From IMG/VR virus record IMGVR_UViG_2700989173_000009: 15,712 nucleotides of DNA; one strand, 5' to 3'. The DNA is from a virus. Lineage: Duplodnaviria > Heunggongvirae > Uroviricota > Caudoviricetes. Below the pieces are notes generated by a model. That model had not been told where the DNA came from. It worked only from the letters and a program-made list of their open reading frames with translations, and made no database searches. Below, one piece after another: positions 11,076 through 11,515 of the stretch; positions within the stretch are counted from its first letter, which is position 1; each line of letters opens with the position of its first letter. The position numbers and the translations under genes are program-made.

Positions 11076-11515
11076 TGAGGCTGTATGACGGGGTGGGGGG
11101 CGTTTTCAGGACAAACCNNNNNNNNNNNNNNNNNNNNNNNNNNNNNNNNNNNNNNNNNNNNNNNNNNGACAACCCCGCCCCCGCCTACCTGGATGATATC
11201 GCCGTGAAGCAGTGGCGGGAAAAATCGCGGCAGCTTGCGGAACGGGGAGACCTGACCCCCGCCGACTGGAGCAATCTGGAACTGTATTGCGTCAACTACT
11301 CCATTTACCGGAAAGCCGTTGCAGACCTTGCGGCGCGCGGGTTCAGCATTGTTAACAGTCAGGGCGGCGAGAGCAGAAACCCCGCATTAAGCGCAAAATC
11401 CGACGCTGAAAGAGTGATGATAAAAATGGCCTCCTTGCTCGGTTTTGACCCGATAAGCCGCCGTAAAAATCCACCGGAAACAGAAGAAGAGGACGAGCTT
11501 GACCGCCTGGAATAA
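11057..11515 (+). CDS. Terminase small subunit, P27 family; 5' end uncertain because of the N gap
   Basis: Post-gap translation ...DNPAPAYLDDIAVKQWREKSRQLAERGDLTPADWSNLELYCVNYSIYRKAVADLAARGFSIVNSQGGESRNPALSAKSDAERVMIKMASLLGFDPISRR... has the P27-type small-terminase pattern (LxxxDxxxLxxYCxxY ... NPxL ... FGxxPxSR). Start at 11057 assumes the gap length is real and in frame. Confidence 0.65.
   Translation: MFPQSLMRLYDGVGGVFRTNXXXXXXXXXXXXXXXXXDNPAPAYLDDIAVKQWREKSRQLAERGDLTPADWSNLELYCVNYSIYRKAVADLAARGFSIVNSQGGESRNPALSAKSDAERVMIKMASLLGFDPISRRKNPPETEEEDELDRLE
11118..11167. other. Run of 50 N (assembly gap or masked sequence) inside the 5' part of the small terminase gene
   Basis: Read directly. 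Flanked by a G-rich tract (11090-11102) and an approximately complementary C-rich tract (11173-11185). Confidence 0.95.

What the first reader, a model, noticed from the sequence alone, without database searches (positions are those of the whole stretch)
11090..11186. N gap sits in terS, close to where a cos site might be, flanked by G-rich and C-rich tracts
The 50-nt N run (11118-11167) is bordered upstream by GGGGTGGGGGGCG and downstream by CCCCGCCCCCGCC, with similar short words (CAGGACAAACC and GACAACCCC) on either side. The masked segment may therefore be a structured or repetitive sequence that resisted assembly. By inference from HK97-like cos-packaging systems, where HNH and terS are neighbours across cos, a cos site could lie between HNH and terS (10910-11167) and be partly hidden by the gap. 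The terS N-terminus and frame continuity across the gap are unverified.
Basis: partly seen in the sequence, partly recalled or inferred. Interest (0 to 1): 0.45.

Follow-up and report, generated by a model that had tools for sequence, protein, structure and literature searches.

The report
Scaffold gap over a deleted cos site
The run of 50 Ns is an assembly spacer between two contig ends that really overlap, and it hides nothing: in this Shigella-type copy of a known phage satellite, a 97-base deletion has removed the probable DNA-packaging (cos) site and the start of the small terminase gene.

Summary
The N run (11118-11167) and its G-rich and C-rich flanks are there as described. The window is a ~14 kb capsid-forming PICI (cf-PICI) phage satellite beside phoQ. 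In the closest complete genome (Shigella flexneri SFBU1023, about 99.9% identical on both sides) the two flanks of the N run overlap by 8 nt (GACAAACC). That genome and four other assemblies read straight through: ...TTTTCAGGACAAACCCGACCCCGCC|TACCTGG.... This is the junction of a 97-nt deletion between two CCCCGCC repeats, relative to intact E. coli copies. The only two differences near the gap (11173 and 11178, A>C) fit Illumina GGC-triggered errors at a contig end. The deleted stretch holds a non-coding block conserved from Enterobacteriaceae to Pasteurella, plus the terS ribosome-binding site and its first ~7 codons. The block is probably the satellite's cos site: the particle-DNA assembly of KpCIDSM30104 lacks exactly 69 nt centred on it, and its elements follow the same order as in HK97 cos. 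Sequence similarity to HK97 is not significant, and no ends were mapped. The ORF 11057-11515 is an artefact of translating N. terS is open only from GTG 11204, and the capsid gene has a stop codon. Verdict: an ordinary artefact over a decayed, known element.

The parts
10469..10909 (+). HNH endonuclease gene of the satellite's packaging module (146 aa)
   Evidence: Pfam PF01844, E 1.8e-8; annotated HNH in the 99.6%-identical E. coli copy
10893..11075 (+). Small 60-aa ORF between HNH and the cos-like region; function unknown
   Evidence: Annotated hypothetical protein in L001; no Pfam hit; a counterpart is annotated in the Klebsiella element
11090..11117 (+). The part of the cos-like intergenic region that is retained: conserved G-run motif GGGGTGGGGGGCGTTTTCAGGAC (11090-11112) plus AAACC; end of the left contig
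   Evidence: Motif present in 7 genomes of 6 genera and in at least 120 viral contigs; a similar G-run in Pasteurella Pmp8, which was found through its protein
11118..11167 (.). 50-N scaffold spacer with no real sequence behind it (true gap length about -8)
   Evidence: Window 8015-11117 = L003 1-3103 and window 11168 onward = L003 3096 onward; read-through in L003, L134, L136, L137 and L138
11168..11175 (+). Second reading of bases 11110-11117 (GACAAACC, here read as GACAACCC): start of the right contig, overlapping the left one
   Evidence: Differences at 11173 and 11178 are 2 of only 3 differences in 3.6 kb against L003. Both are T>G after G on the other strand, downstream of GGC
11179..11185 (+). 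CCCCGCC: the single remaining copy of the 7-nt direct repeat at the junction of the 97-nt deletion
   Evidence: In intact L001 the repeats lie at 12653 and 12750, exactly 97 nt apart; L003 is 97 nt shorter
11204..11515 (+). terS remnant: open only from GTG (103 codons against 118 intact). It has lost its ATG, ribosome-binding site and first ~7 codons; the Terminase_4 domain region is kept
   Evidence: ORF list of the read-through sequence; PF05119 covers residues 16-110 of the intact protein; intact start seen in L001
11499..13160 (+). Large terminase gene (553 aa), intact
   Evidence: PF03354 and PF20441
7684..7686 (+). Premature stop (TGG>TGA, W276*) in the major capsid gene 6859-8016: a second inactivating lesion in this copy

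Best explanation
The window is a copy of a capsid-forming phage-inducible chromosomal island (cf-PICI) inserted between roxA and phoQ, of the type carried by Shigella flexneri. Intact relatives have a 122-nt intergenic region between a small post-HNH ORF and terS. It contains a G-run, a variable spacer, GGCACC, a C-rich tract ending in CTCAAA, TTTTT, CGCACGG and a T-run, then the terS ribosome-binding site and ATG. This block is most likely the satellite's cos site. By analogy with HK97, the terminase with HNH would cut near CTCAAA|TTTTT to leave a C-rich 3' overhang, and TerS would bind the GC-element plus A-tract just downstream (this step is inferred). In the lineage of this window, slippage or recombination between two CCCCGCC repeats deleted 97 nt. 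The deletion removed the whole block downstream of the G-run, together with the terS ribosome-binding site, ATG and first ~7 codons (shown by comparison with other genomes). This copy therefore can probably neither be cut and packaged nor make normal TerS. With the capsid nonsense codon as well, it is a decaying, immobilised satellite. The N run itself is not biology. Short-read assembly broke at the junction, probably because GGC motifs on both strands cause direction-specific Illumina miscalls and loss of coverage (inferred). A scaffolder then joined the two contig ends, which overlap by 8 nt, with 50 Ns.
For: Element identity: int, primase, capsid, protease, portal, head closure, connector, HNH, terS and terL between roxA and phoQ, with no tail genes; definition of cf-PICIs. 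Overlap of the flanks. Errors confined to the contig end. Five N-free read-through junctions, all identical. Deletion of 97 nt equal to the repeat spacing. No complete E. coli genome matches the first 9 nt after the gap, and the E. coli genomes listed all carry the intact form. terS frame. Capsid stop. Cos candidate: the block is conserved across genera. In Pasteurella Pmp8, found through its protein, the 50-nt core is 80% identical while terS DNA is 60% identical. The particle-derived assembly of KpCIDSM30104 (vB_KppS-Ant, Nextera XT library) is 100% identical to the chromosomal copy but lacks exactly 69 nt centred within about 3 nt of the predicted cut. That element packages DNA with cohesive cos ends. 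HK97 layout. Error mechanism.
Against: The reads and sequencing platform of the window's own assembly are not available, so a strain-specific insertion under the Ns cannot be formally excluded. The cos assignment is indirect. No termini were mapped. The similarity to HK97 cos is only in the order of compositional elements, and local alignment scores are no better than shuffles. HK97 TerS is not in the same Pfam family. The 69 nt missing from the Ant assembly could also reflect the same assembly-hostile sequence rather than physical ends. Contig ends near the block in viral contigs are not enriched above chance (5 of 120).
Confidence: 0.85

Rival explanations
1. The Ns hide real sequence peculiar to this strain, for example a ~50-nt insertion or tandem duplication flanked by an 8-nt duplication (GACAAACC / GACAACCC), possibly structured enough to resist assembly.
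For: An 8-nt duplication flanking an unknown stretch is formally what a target-site duplication would look like. The source reads cannot be inspected.
Against: Five assemblies of the same allele read through with nothing there. The second copy differs from the first by the kind of miscall expected at a poor contig end, and 2 of the 3 differences in 3.6 kb sit in its first 11 nt. 50 is a round spacer length. No contig in the viral or metagenome collections has the junction as the window spells it.
Confidence: 0.05
2. The source genome has the intact 122-nt intergenic region (cos plus the terS start), and the gap or mask simply covers it.
For: The intact form is what most E. coli copies have. 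The terS ATG would fall inside the interval.
Against: The 9 nt right after the Ns match the intact sequence at only 2 of 9 positions, and none of 374 E. coli genomes matches them. With the next 9 nt they match the deletion junction 16/18. Both flanks are about 99.9% identical to the deleted Shigella allele but about 97% to intact E. coli copies.
Confidence: 0.03
3. The assembly broke here because the sequenced DNA contained physical ends: cos-cleaved, packaged satellite DNA from spontaneous induction.
For: The particle-derived Ant assembly ends at almost the same base. cf-PICIs are packaged with cos ends.
Against: In this lineage the predicted cleavage region is deleted, terS lacks its start and the capsid gene has a stop codon, so packaging is unlikely. 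A minority of cut molecules would not break a chromosomal assembly. The overlap of the two contig ends indicates continuous template.
Confidence: 0.03
4. The conserved intergenic block of intact relatives is not cos but a transcriptional or translational control region for terS-terL.
For: It lies immediately 5' of terS and is AT-rich near the start codon.
Against: No sigma-70-like promoter on the coding strand, no terminator, no Rfam family, and no fold beyond chance. The ribosome-binding-site-proximal part is the least conserved, whereas the distal C-tract/TCAAATTTTT/CGCACGG/T-run part is the most conserved. The particle assembly is interrupted exactly there.
Confidence: 0.15

Closest known systems
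Capsid-forming PICIs (cf-PICIs) of Proteobacteria, e.g. EcCIEDL933 and KpCIDSM30104 (Alqurainy et al., preprint 10.1101/2022.09.08.507074; He et al., preprint 10.1101/2025.02.11.637232)
   Same: Same gene order (int, regulators, primase, capsid, protease, portal, head connectors, hnh, terS, terL), no tail genes, about 14-15 kb, chromosomal integration. The TerS of the intact E. coli relative of this island (L001) is 81-83% identical to the terS region of a contig from an EDL933-equivalent host (ATCC 43895, H68) and to that of KpCIDSM30104.
   Different: This copy is defective: a 97-nt deletion of the cos-like block and the terS start, and a capsid W276* stop. The two preprints I searched (keyword search only) did not turn up a mapped cos position.
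HK97-type HNH-dependent cos packaging (gp74 HNH, gp1 TerS, gp2 TerL; PMC11331095, PMC9410871)
   Same: HNH and terS are neighbours across cos. The order of elements is the same: G-run about 45-58 nt before the cut, a C-rich tract ending in CAAA at the cut, then a GC element plus T/A-tract (the TerS site at +15 to +29 in HK97), then the terS ATG at about +50. By the predicted cut, the ATG is at +49 in the E. coli satellite.
   Different: No significant sequence similarity. The satellite TerS is Pfam Terminase_4 (P27 type), whereas HK97 gp1 has no Pfam match. The cut position and overhang in the satellite are inferred, not mapped.
Scaffold gaps caused by Illumina sequence-specific errors (Nakamura et al. 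2011, PMC3141275)
   Same: GGC motifs upstream on both strands, miscalls that copy the preceding base (T>G after G), opposing error positions in a small area that cause assembly gaps.
   Different: The platform and reads of this assembly are unknown, so the cause is inferred from the error signature alone.

Membership tests
cf-PICI (capsid-forming phage-inducible chromosomal island) | PICI backbone: integrase at one end, regulator(s) and a primase/replication module, integrated in the chromosome | tested here: met
   Integrase ORF 1-1230 and primase ORF 3767-5515; annotated as such in the homologous E. coli island between roxA and phoQ
cf-PICI (capsid-forming phage-inducible chromosomal island) | Own capsid and packaging genes in the order capsid-protease-portal-connectors-hnh-terS-terL, with no tail genes | tested here: met
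   annotation; Pfam for HNH, TerS and TerL; Pfam of neighbouring genes in 10 related loci; only one 93-aa ORF between terL and phoQ
cf-PICI (capsid-forming phage-inducible chromosomal island) | Functional: inducible, forms small capsids, and packages its own DNA | tested here: not met
   By sequence only: capsid W276*; terS without ATG or ribosome-binding site, and the cos-like block deleted. This copy is best called a cf-PICI remnant. Induction itself cannot be tested here.
HNH-associated cos site (HK97 type) | Located between the HNH gene and terS | tested here: met
   In intact relatives the conserved block lies between HNH plus a small ORF and terS. In the window only its left part (11090-11117) remains.
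HNH-associated cos site (HK97 type) | Packaged DNA ends map to it, with a 3' cohesive overhang | tested here: inconclusive
   The particle-DNA assembly of KpCIDSM30104 lacks 69 nt centred on the block, and cohesive ends are reported for that element. No base-level end mapping exists. Contig ends in viral contigs are not enriched.
HNH-associated cos site (HK97 type) | Sequence homology to HK97 cos | tested here: not met
   Local alignment scores of 14-18 against a shuffle mean of about 17. The resemblance is limited to the order of the elements.
HNH-associated cos site (HK97 type) | Specific TerS binding just downstream of the cut; HNH-stimulated cleavage | not testable with these tools
   Needs EMSA and in vitro cleavage as done for HK97
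Assembly/scaffolding artefact | Flanks are contiguous or overlapping in closely related finished genomes, and other assemblies read through | tested here: met
   8-nt overlap in L003; identical N-free junction in L134, L136, L137 and L138
Assembly/scaffolding artefact | Differences concentrated at the contig end, with a platform-typical error signature | tested here: met
   2 of 3 differences in 3.6 kb fall within 11 nt of the gap; T>G after G, downstream of GGC

The most novel reading that the evidence does not exclude
The N run conceals a real, strain-specific ~50-nt insertion with an 8-bp flanking duplication, placed exactly at the cos-deletion junction. This could be a very small mobile or hairpin-forming element that targets the G/C-rich remnant. 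A second reading that is also not excluded: the cos-less, TerS-less island is kept in Shigella as an immobilised module, because portal, protease, HNH and TerL are still intact.
Probability: 0.04. Interest if true: 0.4.

Novelty: not a real feature. Interest (0 to 1): 0.12.

Why it matters
For the scan, this removes a false lead: nothing is hidden under the Ns, and the ORF spanning them is spurious. For biology the yield is modest but usable. First, this phoQ-adjacent cf-PICI copy is a remnant that lost its probable cos site and terS start through a clean 97-nt repeat-mediated deletion. The resulting 103-aa terS remnant is on record in thousands of assemblies, alongside other independent terS lesions. 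Second, intact relatives offer a precise, testable candidate for the cf-PICI cos site: a ~50-nt core conserved from Enterobacteriaceae to Pasteurella. I found no mapped position for it in the literature I could search.

Tried and rejected
1. A hidden structured or repetitive sequence. The intact relatives' intergenic region folds no better than shuffles (z -0.40), has no Rfam match at E<=1, no terminator and no coding-strand promoter.
2. HK97 cos homology by alignment. Not significant, so I kept it only as an analogy of layout.
3. Contig ends as a proxy for physical DNA ends. Five of 120 viral loci end 12-96 nt after the motif, about what chance gives, and locus ends may be limits of the stored data and not contig ends.
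4. Search for the window's own spelling of the junction (GACAACCCCGCCCCCGCC-TACC), or the L003 spelling, in viral contigs and metagenome contigs. No matches.
5. Search for the source record with the left-flank motif in species-representative genomes. It found relatives in six genera and the Shigella allele, but not an N-containing source.
6. cf-PICI literature for a mapped cos. Keyword searches of the two preprints found none.
7. The ORF 11057-11515 as a longer terS. Rejected, because it exists only through the Ns.

Full report
**Observation.** The window has a single N run, 11118-11167, exactly 50 nt. GGGGTGGGGGGCG lies at 11090-11102 and CCCCGCCCCCGCC at 11173-11185. The words CAGGACAAACC and GACAACCCC abut the run on either side. 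The description is accurate.

**What the window is.** A 1.4-kb query around the gap matches 517 complete E. coli chromosomes. In the best one (AR_0013, locus L001) the region is a ~14 kb island between roxA and phoQ. Its genes are integrase, Icd-like proteins, primase, SSB, PerC, major capsid, HK97-family protease, portal, head closure, head-tail connector, HNH, a small hypothetical ORF, a P27-family terS and terL; there are no tail genes. This is the architecture of the capsid-forming PICIs (cf-PICIs) described by Alqurainy et al.. Pfam confirms HNH, Terminase_4 (TerS) and the TerL ATPase and nuclease domains.

**What lies under the gap in intact relatives.**
- In L001 the small ORF stops at 12607 and terS starts at 12730.
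- The 122-nt spacer reads ...GGGGTGGGGGGCGTTTTCAGGACAAACCCGACCCCGCCGGGCACCGAACGCCTCCTCAAATTTTTATGCACGGGAATTTTTTGAAAAATAATCTGACGAAAAATAAGCATG.
- The window follows this up to ...CAGGACAAACC. After the Ns it resumes with GACAACCCC, then GCCCCCGCCTACCTGG, which corresponds to terS codons 7-11.
- The 9 bases GACAACCCC occur at this place in none of 374 complete E. coli genomes; every match starts at the tenth base.

**The gap hides nothing.**
- A scan of species-representative genomes with the left-flank motif returned Shigella flexneri SFBU1023 (L003, complete genome), which reads ...TTTTCAGGACAAACCCGACCCCGCC|TACCTGGATG....
- Window 8015-11117 equals L003 1-3103 with one mismatch. Window 11168 onward aligns from L003 3096. 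The two flanks therefore overlap by 8 nt (GACAAACC) in the finished genome.
- From 11168 to about 14775 there are only three differences from L003. Two of them are at 11173 and 11178, within 11 nt of the Ns.
- Both are A>C. On the other strand that is T>G directly after G and downstream of a GGC. This is the signature of Illumina sequence-specific errors, which copy the preceding base and, when they occur in both directions over a small area, cause loss of coverage and assembly gaps. GGC lies just upstream on both strands here.
- I looked up the exact 103-aa product of the truncated terS. It is on record in about 3,350 blocks of the assembly collection.
- Four of the ten loci returned (L134, L136, L137, L138; one ENA metagenome scaffold and three NCBI assemblies) read through the junction with no N and are identical to L003.

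**The deletion.** L003 is 97 nt shorter than L001 between TTTTCAGGAC and TACCTGGATGAT. This is exactly the spacing of two CCCCGCC repeats in L001 (12653 and 12750), and one copy remains. That is the footprint of slippage or microhomology-mediated deletion. The deletion removes GGGCACC...CCTCAAATTTTT...T-run, the ribosome-binding site, the ATG and the first ~7 codons of terS. In the read-through sequence the frame entering from upstream stops at a TGA, and the terS frame is open only from a GTG (window 11204), giving 103 codons against 118. The ORF 11057-11515 exists only because Ns are translated as X. No viral or metagenome contig carries the junction, and the E. coli genomes listed carry the intact form. 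The capsid gene of this copy also has TGG>TGA (W276*) in a protein that is otherwise 381/386 identical. This copy is a decaying satellite.

**Is the deleted block a cos site?**

Evidence for:
1. Position between HNH and terS, as in HK97, where the HNH gene ends 319 nt before the right end and terS starts at +50.
2. Conservation. In 107 distinct sequences from Escherichia, Klebsiella, Kluyvera, Pluralibacter, Erwinia, Pectobacterium and many viral contigs, the block GGCACC / C-tract / CTCAAATTTTT / CGCACGG / T-run / GAAAATAA is more conserved than the flanking small ORF and than terS third-codon positions. These loci were found through the G-run motif, so conservation of the motif itself is circular. 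Pasteurella Pmp8 was found through its protein (TerS 66% identical). It has AACCGCCCCCCCAATCAAATTTTTACGCAAGGCAATTTTTTAGAAAATAA, which is 80% identical over 50 nt to the Klebsiella core, while the terS DNA is 60% identical.
3. Particle DNA. 'Phage' vB_KppS-Ant was sequenced with Nextera XT from a lysate of K. pneumoniae DSM 30104. It is 100% identical to the chromosomal island of that strain (ATCC 13883, L007) on both sides. Its linear assembly lacks exactly L007 3756-3824, 69 nt: GAACACGAGGGCGCCAGGCACCACCCGCCCCCTCAAA|TTTTTTCGCACGGTGATTTTTTTGAAAATAAA. From my own knowledge, tagmentation libraries under-represent the last tens of bases of linear molecules. The same element (KpCIDSM30104) is reported to be packaged with cohesive cos ends.
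4. Layout. The joined HK97 cos reads GGGCAGGGGGGGGG, then 31 nt, then GACCGCCGCCAAA|GTTTGAATTTAACGCTAACCCGATTTTTTT...ATG. TerS binds at +15 to +29 and the overhang is a 10-nt 3' extension. The satellite has the same order of elements, and with a cut after CTCAAA the terS ATG would fall at +49 in L001.

Evidence against:
- The similarity to HK97 is not significant by alignment.
- HK97 TerS belongs to no Pfam family shared with the satellite TerS.
- The loss of 69 nt in the Ant assembly could have the same technical cause as the window's gap.
- Contig ends in viral contigs are not enriched at the block.

I rate the cos assignment at about 0.7. The exact cut site is an inference.

**Structure.** The intact spacer has no fold beyond chance (z -0.40), no Rfam match, no terminator and no coding-strand promoter. 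The G-run and C-tract are compositional features of the site, not a hairpin that is conserved: the C-rich partner next to the G-run varies between genera.

**Verdict.**
- The idea that the gap hides a structured segment or part of cos is wrong for this window. The gap is a scaffolding artefact over the junction of a 97-nt deletion that removed the probable cos core and the terS start.
- The element class is already known, this copy is defective, and the gap is not a biological feature.
- Interest is low. The only forward-looking value is the precise cos candidate for intact cf-PICIs, and the observation that terS has been inactivated repeatedly at this island: by the deletion, by ATG>ATA in L135, and by a 1-nt loss in the C-run in L141 and L142.

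Noticed in passing
window 7684-7686 (capsid gene 6859-8016, + strand): Premature stop TGG>TGA (W276*) in the major capsid gene. The protein is otherwise 381/386 identical to the intact E. coli copy.
   Followed up: yes
L135, L141, L142, L139 (loci), upstream of and at the terS start: The same 103-aa terS remnant arises by other routes in islands that keep an intact intergenic block: ATG>ATA (L135), and a 1-nt loss in the C5 run of codons 7-9 (L141, L142). There is an IS1 after terL in L139. The remnant protein is on record in about 3,350 blocks of assemblies. This suggests recurrent, independent inactivation of terS in this phoQ-adjacent island.
   Followed up: partly
L002 (LR881103.1, vB_KppS-Ant), whole record: This record was described in its source paper as a filamentous ssDNA prophage. 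It is the particle DNA of cf-PICI KpCIDSM30104 (capsid, portal, HNH, terS and terL; 100% identical to the ATCC 13883 chromosome). It also has a 2.3-kb gene after terL annotated as tape measure protein, which has no counterpart in the window.
   Followed up: partly
window 10893-11075 (+): A 60-aa ORF overlaps the HNH stop and ends 14 nt before the G-run. It has no Pfam hit and is poorly conserved in sequence, but a counterpart is annotated in the Klebsiella element.
   Followed up: no
window 14776-15712 versus L003: Dense mismatches and indels against Shigella flexneri SFBU1023 inside phoQ (160 of the 163 differences right of the gap). The window's phoQ ORF is intact at 486 aa, so the noise or divergence is probably on the L003 side.
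   Followed up: no
window 2073-3425 and 6083-6572: These stretches of the island's left and middle parts did not align to the E. coli AR_0013 copy, which suggests mosaic replacement in the regulatory/accessory region.
   Followed up: no
L140 and L143 (GCA_026134665.1): Both copies show extra bases in many homopolymer runs (G8, T7, A7, C6) and fragmented portal and terL genes. This looks like a long-read assembly with uncorrected homopolymer errors.
   Followed up: no
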